DNA of 64,000 nucleotides from Desulfovibrio sp. (GTDB lineage: Bacteria > Bacillota > Dethiobacteria > DTU022). The translations under genes were made by a program, and so were the position numbers. The stretch covers positions 21,020-85,019 of the forward strand of contig JAGUZX010000043.1 in NCBI GenBank assembly GCA_020060545.1, read 5' to 3'. Of the stretch, positions 5,233 through 16,140 are shown piece by piece (the first letter of the stretch is position 1; the number at the start of each line of letters is the position of its first letter). The notes under the pieces are model-generated. The model was given only the letters and a program-made list of their open reading frames with translations. It did not search any database and was not told where the DNA came from.

Positions 5233-6465
5233 ATGGAGTCTGAAGCTGCCGATACCATCGAAACAAACCGCGGGCAGGTGGAGATATTTACCTTTGGCCG
5301 GTTTTTAATCAGGCGCAACGCCAAAAACCTGCCGGAAGGGCAAAGCCGTTCCAAAAAAGTTTGGGCGCTTTTTCAATATTTACTGGCGCAGCGCGGTAAA
5401 GCCATTTCTCCGGAAACGATCTTGGAAGCTTTATGGCCGGGACAAAACTATACGGATCCCAATTTGGCGCTGCGTTCTTTAGTCCATCGCCTGCGCCGGC
5501 TTCTCGCGGAAGGTCTTGATGAACCTGAACTTGCCCTGAACATTGTATTTTCTCAGGGAGGCTATAAATGGGACAGTAAAGTCGACTGCTGGCTCGATAC
5601 TGATGAGTTTGACCGGTTATGCCGGGAAGCTTATTTATGGAGCGATGAACAGCCCGCGCGCGCTATCGATACTTACCAAAAAGCGATCGCTTTATATGAA
5701 GGGCCTTTCCTCCCGGAGTGCTCCTACCATGAATGGGCTATCGCCAGGCAGAACTATTATCACCGTGCTTTTTTGGATAGTGTTTACAGGCTGGCGGAGC
5801 TTTTAAAGAGAGCGCACCGCTTTTCCGAAATAATCGAGGTTTGCCAAAAAGCCTTAAACCTGGAATATTTTGAAGAAGAGTTGCATATTCTTTTTCTTGA
5901 GGCGTTACTGGAAGAAGGGAAAATTAAGCAGGCCAGGGCGCATTACGACGAGGTTACTTCTACTTTTTACAGGGAACTCGGCACCAAGCCCTCGGAGGCG
6001 ATGCGGAATATTTACCGCCTGATCAAGATGGACAAGGACAACTTTGACCTGGATTTGACATATATCCAGGAGGGATTACGGTGCCGGCAGGAAAACCGGG
6101 GGGCTTTACTGTGCGACCCGGATGTCTTTCGTTATTTCTATAAACTGGAACGCTCCAGGAGAGAAAGAACGGGCCAGGCGGTATTCCTGGGCCTGCTGAC
6201 GATAACGCTGCCCGATTACCGGTTGCCCGCGCCTCAAATTTTGAAGGAAGCGATGCTTCACTTGGAAGCGGTTTTGGAAAAAACACTGCGCAAAGGGGAT
6301 GTCATATCCCGCTGGAATGAAGCGCAATTTTTGTTGATCCTGCCCGGTTTGAACCTGGAACAGGCCGAGCGGGTACTGAAGCGGGTCAATGCCGCGTTCA
6401 AGAGCCGTTACAATCTTGGCAGCCTGGTGCTGCATCGCAAGCAGCAGCCTCTGCTGCCTTTATAA
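5233..6465 (+). CDS. SARP/BTAD-type transcriptional regulator with C-terminal degenerate GGDEF domain (putative c-di-GMP effector)
   Basis: N-terminal OmpR/PhoB-type winged helix (VEIFTFGRFLIRRN…LRSLVHRLRRLL), a central TPR-like BTAD domain and a C-terminal GGDEF-like domain. The active site is degenerate (NEAQF instead of GG[DE]EF). An RxxD I-site (RKGD) sits 5 residues upstream. Confidence 0.8.
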   Translation: MESEAADTIETNRGQVEIFTFGRFLIRRNAKNLPEGQSRSKKVWALFQYLLAQRGKAISPETILEALWPGQNYTDPNLALRSLVHRLRRLLAEGLDEPELALNIVFSQGGYKWDSKVDCWLDTDEFDRLCREAYLWSDEQPARAIDTYQKAIALYEGPFLPECSYHEWAIARQNYYHRAFLDSVYRLAELLKRAHRFSEIIEVCQKALNLEYFEEELHILFLEALLEEGKIKQARAHYDEVTSTFYRELGTKPSEAMRNIYRLIKMDKDNFDLDLTYIQEGLRCRQENRGALLCDPDVFRYFYKLERSRRERTGQAVFLGLLTITLPDYRLPAPQILKEAMLHLEAVLEKTLRKGDVISRWNEAQFLLILPGLNLEQAERVLKRVNAAFKSRYNLGSLVLHRKQQPLLPL

Positions 6466-6502: not shown

Positions 6503-6536
6503 AACCGCGGTTAAGTCGCAAGAGCGCGGTTTTTTG
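6503..6536 (+). terminator. Putative terminator after regulator gene
   Basis: CCGCG...CGCGG stem followed by TTTTTTG. The loop is long, so confidence is low. Confidence 0.35.
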
Positions 6537-6659
6537 TTACAGGGACCGGAAAAAATAAATTGCGATTGGGTCAATGATGTTGTTGCAACTGAAATATAAC
6601 TGGCGCGTGTTAGTTTAAGATCACAGTTGTTGTAGAATTTAGTGAGGAGCCGCAGTATT

Positions 6660-6902
6660 ATGGCTGAGAACCCAAAAAATGCCTGGTCCCGCCGCAACAG
6701 TTCGGCCGATTTTGTGATCCGGTTTTATCCCGGCGGGGCTGCAAATTACCGGGGGAAAATTGAACACGTGCAATCGGGGCAAGTCCAGCAGTTTTGTGAT
6801 TTTACGGAAATGATGCTCCTGATCCAGGAAAAACTCGATCAAACGGGTTTTCCTCAATCGGATACCGAAATGCGTTCCTGGCCCGATAGTCCATCGAAGT
6901 GA
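6660..6902 (+). CDS. Small hypothetical protein, paralog 1 of a tandem pair (~80 aa)
   Basis: ATG 10 nt after GAGGAG. Shares FxIRF…Y/W-xG-xI…F…E(M/L)(M/I)(L/M)L…E(K/A)L…SW(P/D)D with the downstream ORF. Confidence 0.6.
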   Translation: MAENPKNAWSRRNSSADFVIRFYPGGAANYRGKIEHVQSGQVQQFCDFTEMMLLIQEKLDQTGFPQSDTEMRSWPDSPSK

Positions 6903-6916
6903 TAAAGGAAAAAAAG

Positions 6917-7056
6917 ATGATGTTTCAAAACGCTACGGGGAACAGTAAAGGATCGGATGGAAGCGCCGCCTTTTATGTGCGGATTCATTTCCGCCAAAAT
7001 GCCAGCTGGCAGGGGACAATCCAGTGGTTGGACGAAAAAAAGACGGTTTCTTTCCG
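6917..7056 (+). pseudogene. 5' part of small-protein paralog 2, interrupted by IS insertion
   Basis: The ORF runs into the IS left end and terminates inside the IS (…SFRRADA*). The original frame resumes after the right target-site duplication. Confidence 0.7.
7048..7056. repeat. Target-site duplication TTCTTTCCG (left copy)
   Basis: A 9-bp direct repeat that abuts the IS left terminal inverted repeat. An identical copy lies at 9872-9880. Confidence 0.8.
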
Positions 7057-7200
7057 CAGAGCTGACGCATGATCATAAACATCCATGCAGGGCGGGGGCT
7101 TGCGGGACCGGCGGAAAAAATTTTATCGCAAAATAGTACTGGACAATTTTAAACAGGTATGAAACAATAGTGTGGGAAACCATGGAAGGGGGCCTACACT

Positions 7201-8100
7201 ATGGCAAAACAGTACGATACGCCAGTCCTGCTATGCGGAAGATATTTTACCTTACAGGAGTTGCTGGAGATCCGGGAAACGGCGCGCATGTTCCCGAAAC
7301 TGAGCCGCGCTGAGCTGGCGAATACACTCTGTGAGAACTTGGATTGGGTAACGCCGACCGGTAAGTACAAGACAGCCTCATGTCTACAGCTTTTAGAAAA
7401 ACTTGAAGGGCAAGGCTTGATTGACCTGCCGGCTAAGCTGGAGTACAAGAGCGGCGATAAAAATGGGATCGGCTTTGGGCCGCAGACGGCGCCTGCTTCG
7501 CTGCTTGAAGGCCGGGTAGCCGACCTTGAGCCCATCGCCCTTGAGCCGGTGAGAGACCGAAGTGAACTTCGGCTCTGGAACGAGTATGTGCATCGCTACC
7601 ATGAGTTGGGCTACAAGCGGCCCTTTGGGGCCCATCAGCGCTACTTCATCGTTTCTGCTGCCGGGTCTTTAGGATGCCTTCTGTTTGCTGCTGCCGCCTG
7701 GGCGCTTCAAGCCCGCGACGAGTGGATTGGGTGGAGCGAAGTTGACCGCAGCCTGCGCCTGAACTTAATTGTAAACAACACCCGCCTGCTGATCTTTCCC
7801 TGGGTTAGGGTAAAAAACCTGGCCAGTAAAACCTTATCCCTGGCGGCAAAACGCATCAGTTCTGACTGGCAGGAGCGCTACGGTTACAGCCCGGTATTAC
7901 TGGAGACCTTTGTCGACCCGGAGAAACACCGGGGCACCTGTTACCGGGCGGCCAACTGGATCTTTTTAGGCCAAACCAAAGGGCGCGGCCGCACAGAAAT
8001 GCATAACAAAAGGCCCTTTACGCGCAAATATATTTATGTTTACCCGCTTTGTTGTGACTTCCGCTTTATTCTTTGCGGGAAAGGCGGGGATGTCAGGTGA
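7201..8100 (+). CDS. IS-associated accessory protein (DUF4338-like), orfA of the IS
   Basis: 299 aa. Its stop overlaps the transposase start (GTGA). This family is recurrently found next to DDE transposases. Confidence 0.6.
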   Translation: MAKQYDTPVLLCGRYFTLQELLEIRETARMFPKLSRAELANTLCENLDWVTPTGKYKTASCLQLLEKLEGQGLIDLPAKLEYKSGDKNGIGFGPQTAPASLLEGRVADLEPIALEPVRDRSELRLWNEYVHRYHELGYKRPFGAHQRYFIVSAAGSLGCLLFAAAAWALQARDEWIGWSEVDRSLRLNLIVNNTRLLIFPWVRVKNLASKTLSLAAKRISSDWQERYGYSPVLLETFVDPEKHRGTCYRAANWIFLGQTKGRGRTEMHNKRPFTRKYIYVYPLCCDFRFILCGKGGDVR

Positions 8101-9659
8101 ATGCATCGTTGCCGAAGGTTGTAAAGCGCCATGAACGCAGACAAAAACAGCGTGAGCAGAAGGAGCGGCAAAAAAGGCAGCCGGCTCAGTATCCTTTTGT
8201 TACTGCGTTTGCGAACCGCAAAAGTGACTGCAAAACAGTAGATGAAGAAAAAGAAGCCATCCAGCACACAACGGAGGCCGTACTTGATGTATACATACAG
8301 CTGCTGCCGGGGCTTTTGAAAAAGCTGTCCCTGATACCCGACCCGCGGAACCCCAAGAAAATTAAGCATCAGATAACTGTGCTGATGATCTACGGGATCC
8401 TGATGTTTGTCTTTCAAATCCCCTCCCGGCGCCAGACAAACCGGGAGATGACCACGCCGCAGCTTCATAAAAACCTTAAAGCCGTCTTCGGCGAACTTAA
8501 GGAGATGCCGCATCAGGATACCCTGTACCGCCTGTTGGCAGAGATAGATGTGGATCAGCTCGAGAACATCTACCTAGACATCCTAAGAAGCTTAATCCGC
8601 AAGAAAAAGTTCAAAAACCTGCTTTTAAGTAAGCGCTATCTCGTGGCAGTGGACGGCACACAAAAATACGTCATGAAAGAATGTTGGGACAAACGTTATC
8701 TTAGGCGAAAATTTCGCGGCAAAGACGGCAAATACCAGTATTATGCATACGTTTTAGAAGCGGTTTTAATCTTTTCAAACGGCATGGTGCTGCCTTTGAT
8801 GAGCGAATTTCTGGAGAACACCAAGGCGCTGGAAAGAATCGAGGACGACTTGGAATGGAAACAAGATTGCGAGTTGAAAGCATTCCACCGGCTGGCCAAA
8901 CGGCTGAAGAAAGAGTTTCCGAAACTGCCGCTCACCCTGCTTTTAGACGGGTTGTATGCGAACGGTCCCGTTATGAAAGTTTGCTTAAAGAATAAGTGGG
9001 ACTATATGATCGTTTTAAAAGACGGCTCCCTTGCCTGCGTTTGGCAGGAAGTCAAAGGACTGATGCGCCTAGATACCAAAGGAGAACACCGCTGTAAAAA
9101 AGTATGGCAGGGCCGTAGGCAAATCTTTAGATGGGTAAACGGCATCGAATATGAATATGGTCTGGGCAGAGGTAAAAAAGTGCTGACCATCAATGTGGTG
9201 ATCTGTAACGAAAGCTGGAAAGAAACCGATAGAAAGGGCAATATGGTGGGAAAAACCGGCCATCACGCCTGGATTTCCAGCGTGCCGCTGAACCACAAAA
9301 ATGTCTATGAACGCTGCAATCTGGCGGCCCGGAAACGCTGGTCGCACGAGAACAATATTCTAAAAGAAAAGCATCATGGTTACCACTATGAACACATCTT
9401 TGCCTATGACTTCGATGCGATGCGGGGTTATCACTACCTTATGCATATAGCCCGCATGTTAAATGAACTGATGCTTCATTCAATTAACCTGATCGAAGAG
9501 GTCAAGACAGTCGGCATCCAGGCATTCCTGCGTAAATTTCGCGAAGTTATGATCCACAGGGAGCTCGATACAAAGCAGCTTCGCCTGTTGTCAGAATCCC
9601 CGGGACAGTTGCGGCTGGTGCAGGAAGAAAACTGGCAAACGAACTGGCCGGCGGCATAA
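8097..9659 (+). CDS. DDE transposase, IS4-like
   Basis: LVAVDGTQ (first Asp) and a C-terminal R-x3-E-x6-K (RKRWSHENNILKEK) resembling the IS4 Y(2)R(3)E(6)K motif. ~520 aa. GTG start is coupled to the upstream ORF. Confidence 0.75.
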   Translation: MNASLPKVVKRHERRQKQREQKERQKRQPAQYPFVTAFANRKSDCKTVDEEKEAIQHTTEAVLDVYIQLLPGLLKKLSLIPDPRNPKKIKHQITVLMIYGILMFVFQIPSRRQTNREMTTPQLHKNLKAVFGELKEMPHQDTLYRLLAEIDVDQLENIYLDILRSLIRKKKFKNLLLSKRYLVAVDGTQKYVMKECWDKRYLRRKFRGKDGKYQYYAYVLEAVLIFSNGMVLPLMSEFLENTKALERIEDDLEWKQDCELKAFHRLAKRLKKEFPKLPLTLLLDGLYANGPVMKVCLKNKWDYMIVLKDGSLACVWQEVKGLMRLDTKGEHRCKKVWQGRRQIFRWVNGIEYEYGLGRGKKVLTINVVICNESWKETDRKGNMVGKTGHHAWISSVPLNHKNVYERCNLAARKRWSHENNILKEKHHGYHYEHIFAYDFDAMRGYHYLMHIARMLNELMLHSINLIEEVKTVGIQAFLRKFREVMIHRELDTKQLRLLSESPGQLRLVQEENWQTNWPAA

Positions 9660-9871
9660 TGGCCAAGTTATAAGGTAGAAGCCCGCCTGAGCCACACTAC
9701 CCGTCTGTCCTTTGGTTGGCACCTGGCAGGCCAAAGTGCGCAAAACGATTCACCAAAAAGCGCTGTTGGGGACTAAACAACAAGTTTCTGGAAATAATCG
9801 TCAGTTGACTTGTGCAAAAAAGCTGATTTCGGGCCTCGCAAGATTTTTAAGAATTTCATGCGTCAGCTCTG

Positions 9872-9880
9872 TTCTTTCCG
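9872..9880. repeat. Target-site duplication TTCTTTCCG (right copy)
   Basis: Identical to 7048-7056. Confidence 0.8.
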
Positions 9881-9989
9881 CAGTTTTCTTGAATTAATCA
9901 TGCTCATGACGGAAGCCCTGGGCAAAGTAAAAGGCCGGGAGGCGGCAGCTAATTTACTCTCCTGGGACGATAAAGAAGAGGTTTCGTAG
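9872..9989 (+). pseudogene. 3' part of small-protein paralog 2 (continues the frame interrupted at 7056)
   Basis: After excision of the IS plus one TSD copy in silico, the frame continues …SFRSFLELIMLMTEALGKVKG…LSWDDKEEVS*. This aligns with the C-terminus of paralog 1 (QQFCDFTEMMLLIQEKL…RSWPDSPSK). Confidence 0.7.
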
Positions 9990-10107: not shown

Positions 10108-12186
10108 TTGAATATTCTAGTTGTTGACCGCAATGAAATATTCCCGGATCTTCTCAAAAAGGTCCTGGTTGAAGACAAAAAATGGAACATTATTACCTGC
10201 TCCTCGGGGCTGGTAACGCTGAAGCTCATTCAAAAATTCACTCCCGATATGCTGATCATGGATCTCAACCTGCCCGATATCGACAGCTTTGAAATGCTAA
10301 GCAAGCTGAAAAGCTTCAGCCGGGAGATCTATACGCTGGTTTTAATCGACAAACTGGAGTACGGGAAGCTTGAGCAGGCGCTTTTAGTCGGCATTGACGA
10401 CTATGTGGTGAAACCGATCGAACAAAAAGAGATGATCGCGCGGATCAAGAAAGCGATCTGGTCCAGTTCCCGGAGAAGCGCCCCGGGGATGGACAGGGAG
10501 GCGGGCATCCCTAAGCCCTGGGCGCTGGACGAAGAGCTGCCGGGGGTCAACCATATCATCATCTATCCCAATACCGCCTCCAAAATCCAAGAAACACGGG
10601 GGGAAGCTGCGGCAACCGGGCTGGAAAACGCCGGCGGGACGGATTTTCTAAAAACGGCGCGCGCTGCCGCAGCTGAAATAAACCCTGACGCGGCCGGGCA
10701 TGTGCAAAAGGACAATCCGCCGGTGAAGAGCGCTTCAACCTATACCTTCGGGTTAGTTAAACCGGTTGGTTTAAGCGGAGCGGATGCCGGCCAAACAGCA
10801 GTTTGCGATCCCCCGCCGGAAATCGCCGGCTTAACCCGCTCCGCGATAACTAATGCTCCTGTAGAAACGGATTCTTTTAGCGGCCCGGGTAGCCGGGGTG
10901 AAGCGGCGCCGGCTGAAGCTGAGCCCAAAAGCTGCGGCCGTAATTTGGCCGAAGAAGAAAAGGCCGATCCGCCAGGGTATCTTGAGTGGCCCGGCGAGGA
11001 CGAGTTCAATACCCGCCTGAACACAGGCGGCGGTACGGGGGGCGCGGCGGCCGGAACCGAAAACGCCGGCGGTATTCCTTTTCGAAAAGAGGCCGCGTTT
11101 TTTTCGGCGGGAGCAGCGCCTGCCGCAAGCCGGGATCGTGAAGGCGGCGCGGCGCCGGAGCGTGACCCGTCATATTTCTTTGGTAAACCGGTACGGATGG
11201 ACAGGGCAGGTGAGCCGGCAGAACCGGGACCGGATCGCCTGGAACCTCCCGATGCGTTAAAAGTGGAAGCCGATTTATTACAGCCGGGAGAGTCGAGCGC
11301 TCAGGAAAAACCAAAACCTTGGCGAAGCGCCGGCAGCGTCACGGGAGAGGCAGGCGCAGGAAAGCAAAGCGCCGGGCCCCTTTCTGCCGGCAAAGAGAGC
11401 GGCGCTTATACGGCGGAAGATAAACCCGGCGAAGAGCGATCCAGTGATCGCGGTTTTGCGGCAGAGGGCCTTGCAACCTATTCCTTTGGGTTAAAGCAGG
11501 CGGGAAAATCCAGTCAAGCCGAGGACTGGCCGGCGGTCTCTAAAAGCCGGGCCTACGCCAGGCCTCCGCTGGGCGGCAAAGAGAAAAAGAAGAAACAACC
11601 GGCCGTCGTGAGGATTTTGGGCAACATTTTTTTTGCCGGCTTGATGGTGATGATGGTGACCCTGGCTTTTTTCCTGGTCCAAAGCAGAATGGCCGGAGGC
11701 CCGCCGTCGGTGTTTGGCCACCAGTTGTATGTGGTGCTCAGCGGCAGCATGAACCCCGCTTTTAGCACGGGGAGCCTGGCTTTCGTCTGCCCGATTGAGC
11801 CCGAAAATGTTAAAGTAGGCGATATTATTACTTTTAAAAGCTCGCCGGTCGGCAAAACCCTTACCACTCACCGCGTAGTGGAAATCGACGGCGAAGACGG
11901 GCTTAGTTTTGTGACACGGGGTGACGCAAACCGGGTCAACGACCCCAACCCGGTTCCGGCGGAAAATGTGATCGGAAAGGTAAACGGTGCCATCCCTTAC
12001 CTGGGGTATCTGCTGGATTTCGCCAAAACCAGAAACGGGCTGCTTTTCCTGGTGGTGGTGCCGGGACTGCTGGTGATTGCCTTCGAGTTGCGCAGCCTGT
12101 TCCGGTATGCGGTTGAAAACCAAAAGCAGAAAGAGCTGCAAAAGGGAGGCGGTTTATATGCCGGACGGGTGGTGGATCAGCAATGA
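10108..12186 (+). CDS. Response-regulator receiver domain fused through a ~380-aa low-complexity linker and a TM helix to a SipW-type (archaeal/ER-type) signal peptidase I
   Basis: N-terminal REC domain (phospho-acceptor D in LIMDLNLPD, K in DYVVKP). An Ala/Gly/Pro/Glu-rich linker spans ~aa 120-500. TM segment VVRILGNIFFAGLMVMMVTLAFF. C-terminal S26 domain with catalytic SGSMNP (Ser), TTHRV (His) and a GDAN box. TTG start. Confidence 0.85.
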   Translation: MNILVVDRNEIFPDLLKKVLVEDKKWNIITCSSGLVTLKLIQKFTPDMLIMDLNLPDIDSFEMLSKLKSFSREIYTLVLIDKLEYGKLEQALLVGIDDYVVKPIEQKEMIARIKKAIWSSSRRSAPGMDREAGIPKPWALDEELPGVNHIIIYPNTASKIQETRGEAAATGLENAGGTDFLKTARAAAAEINPDAAGHVQKDNPPVKSASTYTFGLVKPVGLSGADAGQTAVCDPPPEIAGLTRSAITNAPVETDSFSGPGSRGEAAPAEAEPKSCGRNLAEEEKADPPGYLEWPGEDEFNTRLNTGGGTGGAAAGTENAGGIPFRKEAAFFSAGAAPAASRDREGGAAPERDPSYFFGKPVRMDRAGEPAEPGPDRLEPPDALKVEADLLQPGESSAQEKPKPWRSAGSVTGEAGAGKQSAGPLSAGKESGAYTAEDKPGEERSSDRGFAAEGLATYSFGLKQAGKSSQAEDWPAVSKSRAYARPPLGGKEKKKKQPAVVRILGNIFFAGLMVMMVTLAFFLVQSRMAGGPPSVFGHQLYVVLSGSMNPAFSTGSLAFVCPIEPENVKVGDIITFKSSPVGKTLTTHRVVEIDGEDGLSFVTRGDANRVNDPNPVPAENVIGKVNGAIPYLGYLLDFAKTRNGLLFLVVVPGLLVIAFELRSLFRYAVENQKQKELQKGGGLYAGRVVDQQ

Positions 12187-12761
12187 GGTATAAGCTAATT
12201 CTAAGCATCGTCGTTTTGCTGCTGGCCGTTTCCCTTGTCAGCGGCGCCACCACCGCCTGGTTCTCCGACCAGGCGGTTATAGATCCCAATATATTTACCG
12301 TTACTGTCAGCTCGCAAAAAGACAGCGCCTGGGGCGACGGGACAGTCTATCATGCCACGAATCACCGCTATTTTGAATTTACCAAAAGCCAGCTCCTGGA
12401 GACCGGCGGGCGGCAGGCCGACCTTGTGCAGGGGCCGGACGGCAATAAAAAGGTGCTGGGCAAAGTCACGGTTTGGATTGAAACGGTCAGCGGCGTGCAA
12501 ACTTTGTGTGTCAAGTTTGACACCACCGGATACGGCTTGATCGAAAAAACCGATGTTTATGCGGGGCTGCCTTCGGCGGGCAATCCGCCCAACAGCCCCG
12601 GGAAGTATGGGTCGCACCGCACGTATTACGGCAACACGGTAACGATATCCCTGCATCACGATATCACCAGGATCAATGACGGCGGCGCGGGGGTGAGCAT
12701 TTCCCAACTGGGCGGCAGCACCTTAATCCGCATCGCCGCCCATGCCGATGTTTATCACTAG
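12183..12761 (+). CDS. TasA/camelysin (peptidase M73)-like secreted protein with SipW-cognate signal peptide
   Basis: Signal peptide followed by ATTAWFSD (the AxFxD SipW-cognate motif). ATGA overlap with the sipW-fusion stop indicates translational coupling. 192 aa. Confidence 0.8.
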   Translation: MRYKLILSIVVLLLAVSLVSGATTAWFSDQAVIDPNIFTVTVSSQKDSAWGDGTVYHATNHRYFEFTKSQLLETGGRQADLVQGPDGNKKVLGKVTVWIETVSGVQTLCVKFDTTGYGLIEKTDVYAGLPSAGNPPNSPGKYGSHRTYYGNTVTISLHHDITRINDGGAGVSISQLGGSTLIRIAAHADVYH

Positions 12762-12877
12762 GTGCCAAAACTGATCGCATCACGCCAAGACCGGCGATGT
12801 GATCGTTTGCGAGATTTTCGAGAGGGGGGAATAAAGCAACGCAGCATGATCTTGCCCTAAAACTCGCCTAAATTAAC

Positions 12878-12960
12878 GATAATGGCAAACCTGCCGCAAG
12901 GCGGGGACGCAAAGCCAAGGGCCTTTCGCAAGGATGGCAGCCTGGCCGCCGGGGGAAAAA
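12878..12960 (+). ncRNA. c-di-GMP-I (GEMM) riboswitch, copy 1
   Basis: GGCAAACC-UGCC-GCAA(tetraloop)-GGCGGGGACGCAAAGCC followed by a P2 region. It matches the invariant GEMM core (…GGCAAACC…GNRA…GGGACGCAAAGCC…) of the V. cholerae Vc2 aptamer. It lies 25 nt upstream of the RBS of the second TasA-like gene. Confidence 0.8.
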
Positions 12961-12986
12961 GATAAGTGTAAATGGAGGGAGCAAAA

Positions 12987-13604
12987 ATGAATCGAAAAGT
13001 AATGATGAGCGTCCTGGTGATCCTGATGGCCACGGCGGCCGTGGCCGGCGCCACCATGGCCTGGTTTACCGACACGGCAACAGTTGAACCCAACACTTTC
13101 GTGGCGGGGACATTGAAAATCAGGGCCAACGAGGTGTTCAATTGGGCGGATCAAACCAGGCCCAATTGGAACCCCGGGGACTGTGACCAAAAGGAAATTA
13201 CCCTTGAAGTGACGGGGACCAAGTCGGTCTATCTCCGGGCCCGGATTACGGAAACATGGACCATGGTCGGTGCAAGCACGGTAACTTACACCAGGCGGAA
13301 TGCGCCGAACATCACCTGGAAAGTGAACGGACAACCCTGGAACCATGACGGCGCCTGGCAGTTGATCACCATCGACGGCGTTGATTACTGGTTCTATAAA
13401 GGCCCCGTTGACGCCAAACTGGCCTCGGGAGCGCAATTGCTGGTTCTTTCGGAGGTCTGCCTGGATGGAGCGGCCACGGGCAACGACTACCAGGGGGCTA
13501 CGTATACGCTGGCCATTTCTTTTGAAGCGGTTCAGACCACGAACCAGGCGGTAAACGATGTATGGGGATACAAGTTCGAAGGCGGTTCATGGGTGCCCAG
13601 ATAG
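12987..13604 (+). CDS. TasA/camelysin-like secreted protein 2 with SipW-cognate signal peptide
   Basis: ATG 6 nt after GGAGGGAG. Signal peptide followed by ATMAWFTD. 205 aa. Paralogous to 12183..12761. Confidence 0.8.
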   Translation: MNRKVMMSVLVILMATAAVAGATMAWFTDTATVEPNTFVAGTLKIRANEVFNWADQTRPNWNPGDCDQKEITLEVTGTKSVYLRARITETWTMVGASTVTYTRRNAPNITWKVNGQPWNHDGAWQLITIDGVDYWFYKGPVDAKLASGAQLLVLSEVCLDGAATGNDYQGATYTLAISFEAVQTTNQAVNDVWGYKFEGGSWVPR

Positions 13605-13741: not shown

Positions 13742-14407
13742 ATGCAAATGCAAAAATTCGTTCCGGCGATCATCAGTTTAGGGATAATGCTGGCTCTGGC
13801 CGGCCTGGTCCTGCTCATCCAACCTTACTATACGCTTGCCCAGGAAGACCATCCGTGCCGGATCACGGTTACCCCGCCGGAGGGCCGTTTTGCGATTGGG
13901 AATATGAATCCGGGTGACACGGCAAGTAAAAGCTTCACCGTGACCAAGGTCGGAGAGGCTCCTGCCTATCTTTACCTGAGGCAGGAATGGCTGCAGGGAA
14001 ACCCCCTCCCGGGTATGCCGGGAGATCTTTACAGCCAGCTCGTCATGGTAATCAGTTACCAGGGACGCCAGATTTACCGGGGCAAGATGAGCGCCCTGCC
14101 GAACCCGGTTAACGTTACCTTAATGACGCTGGGCCGCCCGATCCTGGTCGGCGAGTCGATCCGGCTCGACTGCAGCGTCCACCTTCCGGGGCCGGAGACC
14201 GGCAACGAGTTTCAGGGTTCGAGCGTGGTCACAAGGCTTGTTTTTTATACCGCCTGTTTCGAAGATGAGGAAGTTCCACCGGAGCCTCCGGAGATTGATC
14301 CTCCGGAGCTCCCGCCGACAAACGGCGTATTGCCGATGCTCCTGCTTGCCGCCGGGGTTTCAGTGATTTTCGCGGGGATTGTGCTCAGGAAAAAGGCGGA
14401 GGCGTAA
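13742..14407 (+). CDS. Secreted beta-rich protein with C-terminal LPPTNG-type cell-wall sorting signal (putative fibre anchor)
   Basis: N-terminal signal/TM. Pro-rich stalk (EEVPPEPPEIDPPE) followed by LPPTNG, a hydrophobic stretch and RKKAEA. This is the tripartite architecture of sortase substrates. Confidence 0.65.
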   Translation: MQMQKFVPAIISLGIMLALAGLVLLIQPYYTLAQEDHPCRITVTPPEGRFAIGNMNPGDTASKSFTVTKVGEAPAYLYLRQEWLQGNPLPGMPGDLYSQLVMVISYQGRQIYRGKMSALPNPVNVTLMTLGRPILVGESIRLDCSVHLPGPETGNEFQGSSVVTRLVFYTACFEDEEVPPEPPEIDPPELPPTNGVLPMLLLAAGVSVIFAGIVLRKKAEA

Positions 14408-14714: not shown

Positions 14715-14911
14715 GTTAGTAATCGATCCTATGCGGATGTATCATCCCAAAAAAAACTTGTGACTGGTAATATTTGTTGCAGGAATTTAAGGTTTATTGG
14801 CCAAAATAAGTATATGGATGTTTGGATTGGATGAGCTGTTAATTGAGACCTTAAAGGAGATGATGGCCGGCAAGATCCTGACTGCGAATTCAAGCAAGTA
14901 AAAATCCTGAC

Positions 14912-15000
14912 CGACAAGGCAAACCCGTCGAGAGGCGGGGACGCAAAGCCAAGGGTCTAAAGCCCGATTGACGGGCCATGATCGCCAGGCTACCGAAACA
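14912..15000 (+). ncRNA. c-di-GMP-I (GEMM) riboswitch, copy 2
   Basis: GGCAAACCCGUCGAGAGGCGGGGACGCAAAGCCAAGGGUCUAAAGCC…GGCUACCGAAACAGG. Same core as copies 1 and 3. The downstream GGTCCCTC…GAGGGAC hairpin (15020-15042) can sequester the RBS. Confidence 0.8.
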
Positions 15001-15048
15001 GGTTTTATTATTTCGGCTGTCGGTCCCTCACAAAGGAGGGACTTTATT

Positions 15049-16140
15049 TTGAGCAAAATAAGGTTTATTAATAGCATCGTGATCAGCGTTGTGATCGCCC
15101 TGATCCTTTCACTGCCGGGGATTTCAAAAATTACTGCCAGGGAAGATCTGACAATTTCGACTGTGGGCGCCGCGTCAAACGAAGCGGGAGCAGAAGAAGG
15201 CCCGGTGTTGCGGGAAGCAACGGCCGGCCTGCCTGGCGGCCCCGATCAGATTGGCCAGGCGGAAGCGGAAATAAACGGTGGTGCCGGAAACGCACCGGAA
15301 CAAAGTTCAACGCCGGGTTCCAGCCCGGAGCAGGGCGCTGTGCCAAAGCAGGAACTGGCTGCCGGGGAACAGTTGACGGAGAAGTCAACAGGCGCGCCGC
15401 CGCAGGAAGCGGTGAAAAATGAACCGGTCCAGGAGACGGTAAAAAGCGAGCCGGCCCCGCCCCCAACCAAGAGTGAAACGCCGCCGCCTGCCGCGCCGGT
15501 CAGCTTCAGTTGGGGCGCCGCGCAAACCTATCGTTACCGCACGGAGATAGTGTTAACCAACAGCGGAGCGGAAGTTTCACAGGGCGTACTGGTCAGGCTG
15601 CCCCTGCTGGAAAACAGCTCGCCGTATCAAAACACCACCCTCACTTCCATTAACTATGAACCTCTTGAGACCACGGGAAGGACAAGCTCTTTTCATCTCG
15701 GAGACATGCAGCCGGGTGAAACGAAAACGCTAATCGTGGATTATACCATTACGGTGCGCCCCGTTTGGCTCAATTCAACCAATGCGACCGTGGAAAAAGC
15801 AAGGCAGGCTTACCGGGAGTACGCCGGGAGCGGCAACTGCTTTGTTCTGGCGGCCGGTTTTGTAAACCGCAGCCGGGAATTGGGTCTTACCGCGCGGGTG
15901 GTCAACGGGATTGCCAACCCGCAAAGAGGGATATTCGCGCCGGGCTATATCCAAAACCGTCACAGCTGGGCCGAGTTTTATGTCGAAGGGCCGGGTTGGG
16001 TTCCGGTTGACCTTACTTTTCAATATTTCGGGCAGCTGCCCCAGGCTTCCCATATCGTCGAGAACTACGCCGACCAATCGCTGAAGCTCAACTATTTCGG
16101 GGGCAGAGTAAGCGCAGTTTGGCACACCAGAATCCTGTAA
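15049..16140 (+). CDS. Secreted transglutaminase-like cysteine protease superfamily protein with Pro/Glu-rich spacer
   Basis: TTG start 8 nt after GGAGGG, downstream of the riboswitch. Signal/TM MSKIRFINSIVISVVIALILSL. C-terminal transglutaminase-like core (Cys in GNCFVLAAGF, His in HSWAEFY, Asp in VPVDLT). Confidence 0.7.
   Translation: MSKIRFINSIVISVVIALILSLPGISKITAREDLTISTVGAASNEAGAEEGPVLREATAGLPGGPDQIGQAEAEINGGAGNAPEQSSTPGSSPEQGAVPKQELAAGEQLTEKSTGAPPQEAVKNEPVQETVKSEPAPPPTKSETPPPAAPVSFSWGAAQTYRYRTEIVLTNSGAEVSQGVLVRLPLLENSSPYQNTTLTSINYEPLETTGRTSSFHLGDMQPGETKTLIVDYTITVRPVWLNSTNATVEKARQAYREYAGSGNCFVLAAGFVNRSRELGLTARVVNGIANPQRGIFAPGYIQNRHSWAEFYVEGPGWVPVDLTFQYFGQLPQASHIVENYADQSLKLNYFGGRVSAVWHTRIL

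What the first reader, a model, noticed from the sequence alone, without database searches (positions are those of the whole stretch)
5233..6465. SARP/BTAD transcription factor carrying a degenerate GGDEF domain with an intact RxxD I-site
The C-terminal ~150 aa align to a GGDEF domain whose active-site motif is NEAQF (catalytically dead). The inhibitory-site RxxD (RKGD) is retained exactly 5 residues upstream. This is the hallmark of GGDEF domains repurposed as c-di-GMP receptors. Fusion to a SARP-type DNA-binding/BTAD module would make this a c-di-GMP-responsive activator, a combination I have not seen described. Candidate direct-repeat targets (GTTGTTG at 6579-6585 and 6626-6632) lie upstream of the small paralog genes.
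Basis: partly seen in the sequence, partly recalled or inferred. Interest (0 to 1): 0.75.

Follow-up and report, generated by a model that had tools for sequence, protein, structure and literature searches.

The report
SARP regulator with c-di-GMP-sensor-like domain
This gene encodes a SARP-type transcription activator fused to a shrunken, catalytically dead GGDEF domain that keeps only the c-di-GMP-binding site, and it sits beside a biofilm-fibre gene cluster carrying c-di-GMP riboswitches, so it is probably an undescribed kind of c-di-GMP-responsive regulator.

Summary
The ORF (5233..6465, +, 410 aa) is real. [quoted passage not shown] That domain is truncated and lacks all catalytic residues; NEAQF replaces GGDEF. 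It keeps RKGD exactly 5 residues upstream.

In 80 homologues, only five C-domain positions are invariant. Three of them (R353, D356, R384) match the PleD c-di-GMP inhibitory-site triad. The family is large and found in anaerobic Bacillota.

The family usually sits next to three things:
- two uncharacterised small-protein genes
- a sipW/TasA-like (or sortase-pilin) matrix cluster with a transglutaminase gene
- c-di-GMP riboswitches, in 23 of 34 related loci and twice in this window (12875-12954, 14908-14997)

A conserved SARP-type promoter lies before the small genes. It has two T(G/A)TAAC heptamers 11 bp apart, 10 nt before the -10 element (window 6583-6616).

An IS element (7060-9871) has split the second small gene. 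No paper found describes this fusion.

Verdict: this is plausibly a c-di-GMP-sensing SARP activator of matrix genes. Ligand binding is inferred, not shown. I rate it a new variant of known kinds, interest about 0.65.

The parts
5233..6465 (+). SARP-GGDEF* regulator gene (410 aa). Winged-helix DNA-binding domain about aa 16-113; BTAD aa 121-264; flexible linker aa 265-289; minimal degenerate GGDEF domain aa 290-410.
6289..6300 (+). I-site motif RKGD (R353-D356). R353 and D356 are invariant in 80 of 80 homologues.
   Evidence: The alignment to SiaD and DgcR places it on their RxxD.
6316..6330 (+). NEAQF (aa 362-366) in place of GG(D/E)EF. Family consensus is [NSH][ED][AS]Q[FYL]; no member has GGDEF.
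6382..6384 (+). R384 codon. Invariant arginine on helix alpha-3, 28 residues after D356, matching the D362-R390 spacing of PleD.
   Evidence: aligned to the R of SiaD VLERV and DgcR ILDRV. PleD numbering is from my own knowledge.
6503..6540 (+). Terminator-like hairpin and T-run after the regulator gene. It separates the regulator from the small-gene promoter.
6583..6616 (+). Predicted SARP box and promoter: repeat 1 TTGCAAC (6583-6589), repeat 2 ATATAAC (6594-6600), 11-bp period, then 10 nt, then -10 TAGTTT (6611-6616).
   Evidence: Anchored alignment of homologous spacers. The pattern occurs at this position in 23 loci. It is the best PWM hit in the whole 64-kb window: 8.2, next best -5.7, shuffle maxima at most 1.8.
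6642..6902 (+). Small protein A. The likely true start is ATG 6660, giving 80 aa. It belongs to an uncharacterised family with no signal peptide.
   Evidence: P0110 is 80 aa and 100% identical.
6899..7059 (+). Small protein B, 5' part, cut by the IS insertion.
7060..9871 (+). Insertion sequence. It has 13-16 nt perfect terminal inverted repeats and a duplicated target TTCTTTCCG(CAG) at 7048-7059 and 9872-9883. It carries a DruA-like ORF (7201..8100) and a DDE transposase (8073..9659).
9884..9989 (+). Small protein B, 3' part. Removing 7060-9883 restores an 88-codon ORF ending ...WDDKEEVS, the family-typical C-terminus.
   Evidence: and the alignment.
10108..12186 (+). Receiver domain fused to a SipW-type signal peptidase (692 aa).
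   Evidence: SipW 1.3e-42 over residues 502-675.
12183..12761 (+). Protein with a SipW-dependent-type signal peptide.
12875..12954 (+). c-di-GMP-I-GGC variant riboswitch aptamer, directly upstream of the TasA-like gene.
   Evidence: 70.5 bits, E=3.5e-15. It has the same position in L008, L017, L019, L023, L041, L048, L059 and L060.
12972..13604 (+). TasA/BsaA-like matrix protein (Peptidase_M73 family, SipW-type signal peptide).
13742..14407 (+). Conserved cluster protein of unknown family. A homologue is found in 27 of the 87 related loci fetched at that point.
14908..15043 (+). c-di-GMP-I riboswitch aptamer (14908-14997) followed by a terminator-like hairpin (15022-15043).
   Evidence: (79.4 bits, E=1.7e-14).
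14968..16140 (+). Transglutaminase-like gene. The mechanical ORF start overlaps the riboswitch, so the true start is probably after 15050.

Best explanation
The gene encodes a SARP-family activator whose C-terminal module is a minimal, catalytically dead GGDEF domain. That domain retains only the product-binding (inhibitory, I-) site and serves as a c-di-GMP sensor.

Proposed mechanism:
1. The N-terminal winged helix plus BTAD binds, as two protomers, two T(G/A)TAAC heptamers spaced 11 bp apart. These overlap the -35 region of the promoter in front of two small-protein genes (window 6583-6616). From there the protein recruits RNA polymerase in the way shown for AfsR.
2. c-di-GMP binding to R353/D356/R384 switches this activity, most likely by promoting dimerisation or releasing the DNA-binding module. 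The direction (activation by c-di-GMP) is inferred.
3. The transcript probably runs on into the sipW/TasA-like matrix-fibre and transglutaminase genes. Those genes are gated a second time by c-di-GMP riboswitches, giving two layers of control by one messenger.

Shown in silico: domain identity and fold, loss of all catalytic features, family-wide invariance of the I-site triad, the conserved box-promoter, the gene neighbourhood and the riboswitches.

Inferred: ligand binding, its sign, the operon extent and the role of the small proteins.
For: Architecture:
- Pfam finds Trans_reg_C, BTAD and GGDEF.
- A family profile hits AfsR (1.2e-15), EmbR, and the GGDEF domains of SiaD and DgcR.
- The AlphaFold models are confident: pLDDT 88.6 for the full protein and 92.6 for the C-domain.

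I-site:
- Of the roughly 125 C-domain positions, only five are invariant in 80 homologues: F299, L352, R353, D356 and R384. Three of them are the I-site triad.
- If invariant positions were placed at random, the chance of this is 3e-5.
- The GGDEF position is degenerate in all 80 members.

c-di-GMP context:
- Two c-di-GMP riboswitches lie in the same cluster of this window.
- Riboswitches are present in 23 of 34 related loci.
- Canonical diguanylate cyclase genes are the immediate neighbours of the regulator in L030 and L083, and lie within 9 kb in five more loci.

Target site:
- The exact pattern TAAC-N7-TAAC-N10-TANNNT occurs 27 times in 87 loci (about 2.2 Mb counting both strands). Nearly all copies lie 100-500 nt downstream of the regulator's stop codon on the same strand.
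- The window's site is the unique best PWM hit.
- The geometry matches the published SARP rule: direct repeats 11 bp apart, the 3' repeat close to the -10 element (PMC10936776).

Neighbourhood:
- 28 of 41 species loci with at least 6 kb of downstream sequence carry sipW and/or TasA-like genes.
- Look-ups seeded from the small proteins alone again return SARP plus Peptidase_M73 genes.

Precedent: the degenerate GGDEF protein YdaK of B. subtilis needs its RxxD motif to drive exopolysaccharide production (PMC5422440).
Against: - No binding data exist.
- The Pfam GGDEF score is at the threshold (23.9 against 23.8). The domain is truncated, so the I-site pocket could differ from canonical ones.
- RxxD and the alpha-3 arginine are common across GGDEF domains, so part of their conservation could be inherited or structural.
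- The riboswitches already provide c-di-GMP sensing for the cluster, so the protein might integrate a different signal.
- 11 of 34 related loci show no riboswitch, and 13 of 41 show no recognisable sipW or TasA-like gene. Many of these are short contigs or distant members.
- In this window the IS insertion separates the promoter from the matrix genes, so the circuit may be broken in this strain.
- No GGDEF or EAL enzyme gene is present within the 64-kb window itself.
Confidence: 0.6

Rival explanations
1. The GGDEF-derived domain binds no ligand. It acts as a dimerisation or protein-docking module, for example for the small A/B proteins, a diguanylate cyclase or the REC-SipW protein. The RxxD/R conservation would then reflect that interface or the fold itself.
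For: The former active-site hairpin is itself conserved as W-N-E-A-Q (W361 69/80, N362 66/80, Q365 76/80), which suggests a surface under selection other than the I-site. BTAD-GGDEF* also occurs with an N-terminal receiver domain instead of the winged helix (P0083, P0085), so BTAD-GGDEF* may be a structural unit. SARPs act as side-by-side dimers (PMC10936776).
Against: The three invariant polar residues are exactly those that contact c-di-GMP in diguanylate cyclases and in degenerate receptors. The loci are saturated with c-di-GMP riboswitches.
Confidence: 0.2
2. The I-site-like pocket binds a different nucleotide, such as c-di-AMP, cGAMP, pGpG, (p)ppGpp or GTP, rather than c-di-GMP.
For: The domain is highly diverged and truncated. 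A PleD structure with both c-di-GMP and ppGpp bound exists in the PDB (9g85, listed). c-di-AMP is widespread in Bacillota (my own knowledge).
Against: The Arg/Asp/Arg triad is the guanine- and phosphate-recognising set of c-di-GMP I-sites. The genomic context is c-di-GMP-specific: class I and class II riboswitches and neighbouring GGDEF cyclases.
Confidence: 0.1
3. The protein senses c-di-GMP but with the opposite sign. c-di-GMP would release it from DNA or block activation, so the small genes are expressed at low c-di-GMP.
For: The sequence does not fix the sign. Some c-di-GMP transcription factors are inhibited by the ligand, FleQ being an example (my own knowledge).
Against: SARPs are activators. 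Matrix and pilus genes are usually induced by c-di-GMP. The downstream riboswitches precede terminator-like hairpins, and a coherent circuit would need the same sign.
Confidence: 0.1
4. The protein is an active diguanylate cyclase, as one database entry names a homologue (P0024).
For: Only the weak PF00990 match.
Against: GGDEF is replaced by NEAQF in this protein and is degenerate in all 80 members. The beta-1 metal-binding aspartate and the NDxxGHxxGD substrate loop are absent (TITLPDYRLPAPQ instead). The C-terminal third of the domain is missing.
Confidence: 0.01

Closest known systems
AfsR/AfsS and the small SARPs of Streptomyces (ActII-ORF4, RedD, DnrI), and EmbR of Mycobacterium
   Same: It has the same N-terminal OmpR-type winged helix plus BTAD (AfsR E=1.2e-15, EmbR 3.2e-9). 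The predicted target is a pair of direct heptamer repeats 11 bp apart next to the -10 element, as published for SARPs. As with afsR-afsS, the regulator gene is followed directly by small-protein gene(s) whose promoter carries the box.
   Different: It is found in anaerobic Bacillota, not Actinobacteria. The C-terminal signal module is a degenerate GGDEF domain instead of NOD/TPR (AfsR) or FHA (EmbR). The neighbours are biofilm-matrix or pilus genes, not antibiotic clusters. The repeat sequence is T(G/A)TAAC.
Degenerate-GGDEF c-di-GMP receptors that use the I-site (PelD, PopA, YdaK, SgmT)
   Different: Those proteins act post-translationally or through a kinase. None is itself a DNA-binding transcription factor. 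The domain here is shorter (about 120 aa, ending after beta-4).
c-di-GMP-responsive transcription factors (BldD, FleQ, VpsT, VpsR, MrkH, Clp, BrlR)
   Same: The proposed logic is the same: the second messenger controls promoter binding or activation of matrix or development genes. For BldD, the ligand drives dimerisation (PMC4151990, listed).
   Different: There is no homology. None of them is a SARP, and none uses a GGDEF-derived sensor domain.
tapA-sipW-tasA (Bacillus) and sipW-bsaA (Clostridium perfringens) matrix operons
   Same: The downstream genes encode a SipW-type signal peptidase and TasA/BsaA-family proteins with SipW-type signal peptides (PMC7395162, listed).
   Different: Those operons are controlled by SinR/SinI or by a two-component system. 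Here SipW is fused to a receiver domain, and the cluster carries c-di-GMP riboswitches and a SARP-GGDEF* regulator.
PucR/CdaR-type regulators with a GGDEF-like sensor domain (Pfam PF17853)
   Same: They are transcription factors that combine a DNA-binding domain with a non-catalytic GGDEF-like domain. There is a weak match to GGDEF_2 (E=0.17).
   Different: They have a different DNA-binding domain (a C-terminal HTH) and a different domain order. To my knowledge they have no conserved RxxD I-site and no link to c-di-GMP.

Membership tests
SARP family | N-terminal OmpR/PhoB-type winged-helix DNA-binding domain | tested here: met
   PF00486 at 31.2 bits (cut-off 26.2), residues 40-98. The profile aligns to AfsR residues 49-285.
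SARP family | Bacterial transcriptional activator domain (BTAD) directly after the winged helix | tested here: met
   PF03704 at 68.8 bits, residues 121-264, covering the full profile.
SARP family | Target promoters with direct repeats at 11 or 22 bp spacing, the 3' repeat about 8 bp from the -10 element | tested here: met
   A conserved T(G/A)TAAC-N5-T(G/A)TAAC box lies 10 nt (8 nt after the conserved GG) before TATAAT, downstream of the regulator gene in 23 or more loci and in the window. The rule is quoted from PMC10936776. Physical binding was not tested.
GGDEF domain (PF00990) / diguanylate cyclase | Sequence match to the family model | tested here: inconclusive
   23.9 bits against a cut-off of 23.8, covering profile positions 62-108 of 161 only. 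TIGR00254 scores 16.8 against 37.4. The family profile against PDB GGDEF domains is significant (5.7e-9).
GGDEF domain (PF00990) / diguanylate cyclase | GGDEF fold | tested here: met
GGDEF domain (PF00990) / diguanylate cyclase | GG(D/E)EF catalytic motif and metal- and GTP-binding residues | tested here: not met
   NEAQF in this protein. None of 80 homologues has GG(D/E)EF. The beta-1 DxD and the NDxxGHxxGD loop are absent.
Degenerate-GGDEF c-di-GMP receptors (PelD/PopA/YdaK type) | RxxD motif five residues before the (degenerate) GGDEF position | tested here: met
   R353-K-G-D356, then 5 residues, then N362. R and D are invariant in 80 of 80.
Degenerate-GGDEF c-di-GMP receptors (PelD/PopA/YdaK type) | Third I-site residue: arginine on helix alpha-3 (PleD R390 equivalent) | tested here: met
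   R384 is invariant in 80 of 80. It aligns to the R of SiaD VLERV and DgcR ILDRV. The equivalence to PleD R390 rests on spacing and my own knowledge.
Degenerate-GGDEF c-di-GMP receptors (PelD/PopA/YdaK type) | Measured c-di-GMP binding that depends on the I-site | not testable with these tools
   This needs DRaCALA, ITC or MST with R353A/D356A/R384A controls.
c-di-GMP regulon (functional class) | Organism makes c-di-GMP, and the locus responds to it | tested here: met
   Two c-di-GMP-I-type aptamers lie in the window cluster. There are 42 aptamers in 23 of 34 related loci. Canonical GGDEF cyclase genes lie in 7 flanks.

The most novel reading that the evidence does not exclude
This would be a new class of c-di-GMP effector. 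It would be the first SARP-family transcription factor, and to my knowledge the first DNA-binding regulator in Clostridia-like Bacillota, that senses c-di-GMP directly. It would do so through a stripped-down GGDEF domain reduced to its I-site. It would act in a two-layer circuit with c-di-GMP riboswitches to switch on TasA-like fibre or sortase-pilus matrix loci. Its first targets would be a pair of uncharacterised small cytoplasmic proteins (A/B), which may relay the signal in the way AfsS does for AfsR.
Probability: 0.5. Interest if true: 0.75.

Novelty: new variant of a known kind. Interest (0 to 1): 0.65.

Why it matters
In Firmicutes, c-di-GMP signalling is known mainly through riboswitches and a few PilZ or degenerate-GGDEF proteins. 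To my knowledge no transcription factor that reads the signal has been described there.

If this family binds c-di-GMP, it adds a new effector class. By the C-domain profile the family has about 2,000 clusters at 50% identity with E<=1e-10.

It would also extend SARPs beyond actinobacterial antibiotic control, and it would show how a cyclase's feedback site can be recycled as a sensor on a DNA-binding protein.

It gives an immediately testable circuit: a defined protein, three point mutants, a 34-bp operator and riboswitch-gated targets. The circuit concerns biofilm-fibre production in syntrophic and subsurface anaerobes that are otherwise hard to study.

Tried and rejected
- **TATAAC as the -10 element.** I first read the enriched word TATAAC in the spacers as a -10 element. 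The anchored alignment showed it is the repeat unit, with the real -10 ten nucleotides further on.
They are at chance level and not conserved.
- **Active cyclase.** Rejected because every catalytic feature is missing.
- **c-di-GMP enzymes in the window.** Regex searches for GGDEF, EAL, HD-GYP and PilZ proteins in the 64-kb window found none; the only hits were two spurious EAL matches. A first, overly strict regex on the loci also found none, and a looser one found 7.
- **Locating the window protein.** The look-up of encoding contigs for the window protein returned nothing, so the source organism was not identified. The best species-level relative is 58% identical.
- **The search for related loci with the 80-sequence alignment.** It failed for lack of conserved stretches. 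A 20-sequence alignment worked.
- **Small proteins A/B.** No Pfam or NCBIfam hit.
- **Further SARP boxes.** A PWM scan of the window found no second box in front of sipW, the TasA-like gene or the regulator itself.
- **Riboswitch upstream of the regulator or the small genes.** None in this window at E<=0.1.
- **afdb50 fold library.** Unavailable.
- **Literature.** Searches for SARP/BTAD with GGDEF or c-di-GMP found no description of this fusion.
Full report
**1. The observation**

The ORF 5233..6465 (+) of 410 aa is present as stated. Pfam finds three domains:
- Trans_reg_C, residues 40-98, 31.2 bits
- BTAD, residues 121-264, 68.8 bits
- GGDEF, residues 344-390, 23.9 bits against a cut-off of 23.8, covering profile positions 62-108 of 161

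The sequence shows RKGD at residues 353-356, then five residues (VISRW), then NEAQF at 362-366.

The GGDEF assignment is marginal in Pfam but holds up under stronger tests:
- An alignment of 46 C-terminal regions, searched as a profile against PDB sequences, hits SiaD (5.7e-9), DgcR (4.3e-8), SadC and others.

The domain is nevertheless a stripped-down version, beta-alpha-beta-alpha-beta-beta-alpha-beta, that ends after beta-4. It is about 120 residues, not about 150. It lacks the beta-1 aspartates, the NDxxGHxxGD loop and the whole C-terminal third of a canonical domain. Cyclase activity can be excluded.

**2. The family**

The protein database returns more than 85 full-length homologues of 400-417 aa with the same architecture. 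A scan of species-representative genomes finds relatives in 104 genomes, nearly all uncultured Bacillota. These include Syntrophomonadaceae, Peptococcaceae, Dethiobacter, Halanaerobiales and Tissierellales, plus the isolates Alkaliphilus serpentinus and Tissierella sp. P1.

A search of 1.84 billion cluster representatives with the C-domain profile gives 67 clusters at E<=1e-30 and 1,967 at E<=1e-10. In the best 150, the domain almost always sits at about residues 275-410 of a roughly 400-aa protein, or in a shorter protein that is probably a gene fragment. A few relatives carry a receiver domain in place of the winged helix (REC-BTAD-GGDEF*).

In the 80-sequence alignment, the GGDEF position is degenerate in every member, with consensus [NSH][ED][AS]Q[FYL]. 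Only five C-domain positions are invariant: F299, L352, R353, D356 and R384.
- R353 and D356 are the RxxD motif.
- R384 lies on helix alpha-3, 28 residues after D356. It aligns to the conserved arginine of SiaD (VLERV) and DgcR (ILDRV).
- From my own knowledge of PleD (R359, D362, R390), this is the third residue of the primary inhibitory site.

If invariant positions were placed at random, all three would fall among five invariant positions out of 125 with a probability of 3e-5. The one function of a GGDEF domain that selection has kept here is the c-di-GMP product-binding site.

**3. The surroundings**

The gene lies in a conserved chromosomal block, alaS-ireB-ruvX-DUF1292-mltG-[regulator]. 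Downstream, most relatives carry the same module:
- **Small genes.** One to three small genes of 65-100 codons.
- **Signal peptidase.** A SipW-type signal peptidase, here fused to a receiver domain (10108..12186; SipW 1.3e-42).
- **Matrix proteins.** Proteins with SipW-dependent signal peptides of the TasA/BsaA/camelysin family (12183..12761 and 12972..13604).
- **Transglutaminase and PBP.** A transglutaminase-like protein (to 16140) and a penicillin-binding protein.

Of 41 species loci with at least 6 kb of downstream sequence, 28 have recognisable sipW and/or TasA-like genes. In Gracilibacter the same position holds a SpaA-type pilin, a sortase and a transglutaminase.

**4. c-di-GMP riboswitches**

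An Rfam scan of the first 20 kb of the window finds exactly two RNA elements, and both are c-di-GMP aptamers:
- A class I-GGC variant at 12875-12954 (70.5 bits), immediately before the TasA-like gene.
- A class I aptamer at 14908-14997 (79.4 bits), before the transglutaminase gene and followed by a terminator-like hairpin at 15022-15043.

I scanned 34 related loci, and 23 carry between one and four c-di-GMP aptamers of class I, I-GGC or II inside the same cluster. Notable placements:
- In Gracilibacter, a class II aptamer precedes the pilin gene.
- In L033, a class II aptamer lies about 700 nt upstream of the regulator gene.
- In L014, a SARP box is followed by a weak class I aptamer and then a TasA-like gene.

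Canonical diguanylate cyclase genes, with RxxD and GG(D/E)EF, flank the regulator directly in L030 and L083 and lie within 9 kb in five other loci. These organisms therefore make c-di-GMP, and this gene cluster is one of its outputs. This is independent contextual support for the receptor reading.

**5. The target site**

However, a repeated 7-mer is expected in 53% of shuffles of that spacer, and the word is found in only 2 of 34 homologous spacers.

Aligning the spacers between the regulator and the first small gene shows a different and conserved structure. Two heptamers T(G/A)TAAC lie 11 bp apart, followed after 10 nt by TATAAT. The consensus is TTTGTAACAGGnTTATAACGGCnnnTnnnTATAAT.

The exact pattern TAAC-N7-TAAC-N10-TANNNT occurs 27 times in the 87 loci held at that point. 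Almost all copies lie 100-500 nt after the regulator's stop codon on the same strand.

In the window, the site is TTGCAAC (6583-6589), ATATAAC (6594-6600) and a -10 element TAGTTT (6611-6616). It is the single best PWM match in 64 kb: 8.2, against -5.7 for the next best and at most 1.8 for shuffle maxima. The PWM was built from the related sites, so its scores on those sites are circular. The window site and several others (L022, L028, L032) were not used to build it.

This geometry is the published signature of SARP promoters: direct repeats 11 bp apart, with the 3' repeat close to the -10 element (PMC10936776). A terminator-like hairpin at 6503-6540 separates the regulator gene from this promoter.

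**6. The small proteins and the IS**

The small genes form one uncharacterised family with two subtypes:
- A: ...DFIVRI...GKIEHVQSGQVQ.F.DFLEM..L.Q.KLD..G.PQ.DTELR.W
- B: ...F.VR..YRQN.SWQGTIQWLDGKKT..FRS.LEL..L...A...W.DKE.VS

They have no signal peptide, no Pfam or NCBIfam match and no credible PDB relative. They have at least 258 database homologues, and those that carry any name are called hypothetical. Two look-ups seeded from small proteins alone again landed next to a SARP-BTAD gene and Peptidase_M73 genes.

In this window, small gene B is split. An IS element with perfect terminal inverted repeats (7057-7072 and 9856-9871) and a duplicated target sits inside it. The IS carries a DruA-like ORF and a DDE transposase. 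Deleting 7060-9883 restores an 88-codon ORF with the family-typical end WDDKEEVS. In this strain, the promoter and the matrix genes are therefore separated by 2.8 kb of mobile DNA.

**7. Mechanism proposed**

The protein most likely works in three steps:
1. It binds the two repeats as a pair of protomers and activates the small-gene promoter in the SARP manner. This is inferred from homology and from the operator geometry.
2. c-di-GMP bound at R353/D356/R384 controls this activity. I favour ligand-promoted dimerisation or release of the DNA-binding module. This step is inferred.
3. The matrix genes further downstream are gated again by c-di-GMP riboswitches. The aptamers are shown; the operon continuity is inferred from the lack of a terminator between 9989 and 10108.

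The afsR-afsS pair, a SARP whose first target is the small gene next to it, is the closest analogy for the small proteins.

The rival readings are a ligand-free docking or dimerisation domain, a different nucleotide ligand, and the opposite regulatory sign. None is excluded. An active cyclase is excluded.

**8. Comparison and novelty**

The protein meets the tested SARP criteria. It has the GGDEF fold but fails the catalytic criteria. It meets the sequence criteria of the degenerate-GGDEF I-site receptors (PelD, PopA, YdaK, SgmT). Binding itself cannot be tested here.

None of those receptors is a DNA-binding protein, and none of the known c-di-GMP transcription factors is a SARP or uses a GGDEF-derived sensor. 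Full-text searches for SARP or BTAD together with GGDEF or c-di-GMP found no description of this fusion. Databases label members only as SARP/BTAD regulators or, wrongly, as diguanylate cyclase.

I rate it a new variant of known kinds, with moderate to high interest. The mechanism is well motivated and directly testable, but it is so far supported only in silico.

Noticed in passing
window 12875-12954 and 14908-14997: Two c-di-GMP riboswitch aptamers lie in the matrix-gene cluster. A class I-GGC variant sits before the TasA-like gene. A class I aptamer sits before the transglutaminase gene and is followed by a terminator-like hairpin at 15022-15043.
   Followed up: yes
related loci L008, L017, L019, L023, L041, L048, L059, L060, L071 (coordinates): The c-di-GMP-I-GGC variant aptamer is found consistently right in front of Peptidase_M73/TasA-like genes. 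Canonical class I aptamers sit in front of the transglutaminase gene, often in tandem pairs (L023, L048, L089). To my knowledge the ligand of the GGC variant is not established. This association could help to settle it.
   Followed up: partly
window 7060-9871: An insertion sequence has 13-16 nt perfect terminal inverted repeats and a 9-12 bp target duplication. It carries a DruA-like (PF14236) ORF next to a DDE transposase, and it has split small gene B. A Druantia-type DruA domain inside an IS is unusual.
   Followed up: partly
window 10108-12186: A 692-aa protein has an N-terminal receiver domain, about 380 residues with no family match, and a C-terminal SipW-type signal peptidase. Relatives of 417-513 aa occur in the same position in other loci (L005, L007). 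A phosphorylation-controlled signal peptidase would be unusual.
   Followed up: partly
window 6642-6902, and 6899-7059 with 9884-9989: Two paralogous small cytoplasmic proteins (subtypes A and B) belong to a family with no Pfam, NCBIfam or PDB relative. The family has at least 258 database homologues and is almost always found just after the SARP-GGDEF* gene.
   Followed up: partly
L089 3794-5035 and 5280-6524; P0083 and P0085: One genome has two tandem paralogues of the regulator after mltG. Other relatives replace the winged helix with a receiver domain (REC-BTAD-GGDEF*). This suggests BTAD-GGDEF* is the conserved functional unit.
   Followed up: no
L023 8954-8994; L033 8204-8286: In L023 a SARP-box-like site (PWM 15.2) lies just upstream of the regulator gene itself. 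In L033 a class II c-di-GMP aptamer lies about 700 nt upstream of it. Both hint at autoregulation or riboswitch control of the regulator in some species.
   Followed up: no
L001-L004 (Dethiobacteria) 7245-7668: In this lineage the regulator is followed directly by the transglutaminase and PBP genes. There are no small genes and no sipW or tasA genes. A weak box-like site (PWM 5.0) lies at 7342. This looks like a reduced version of the module.
   Followed up: no
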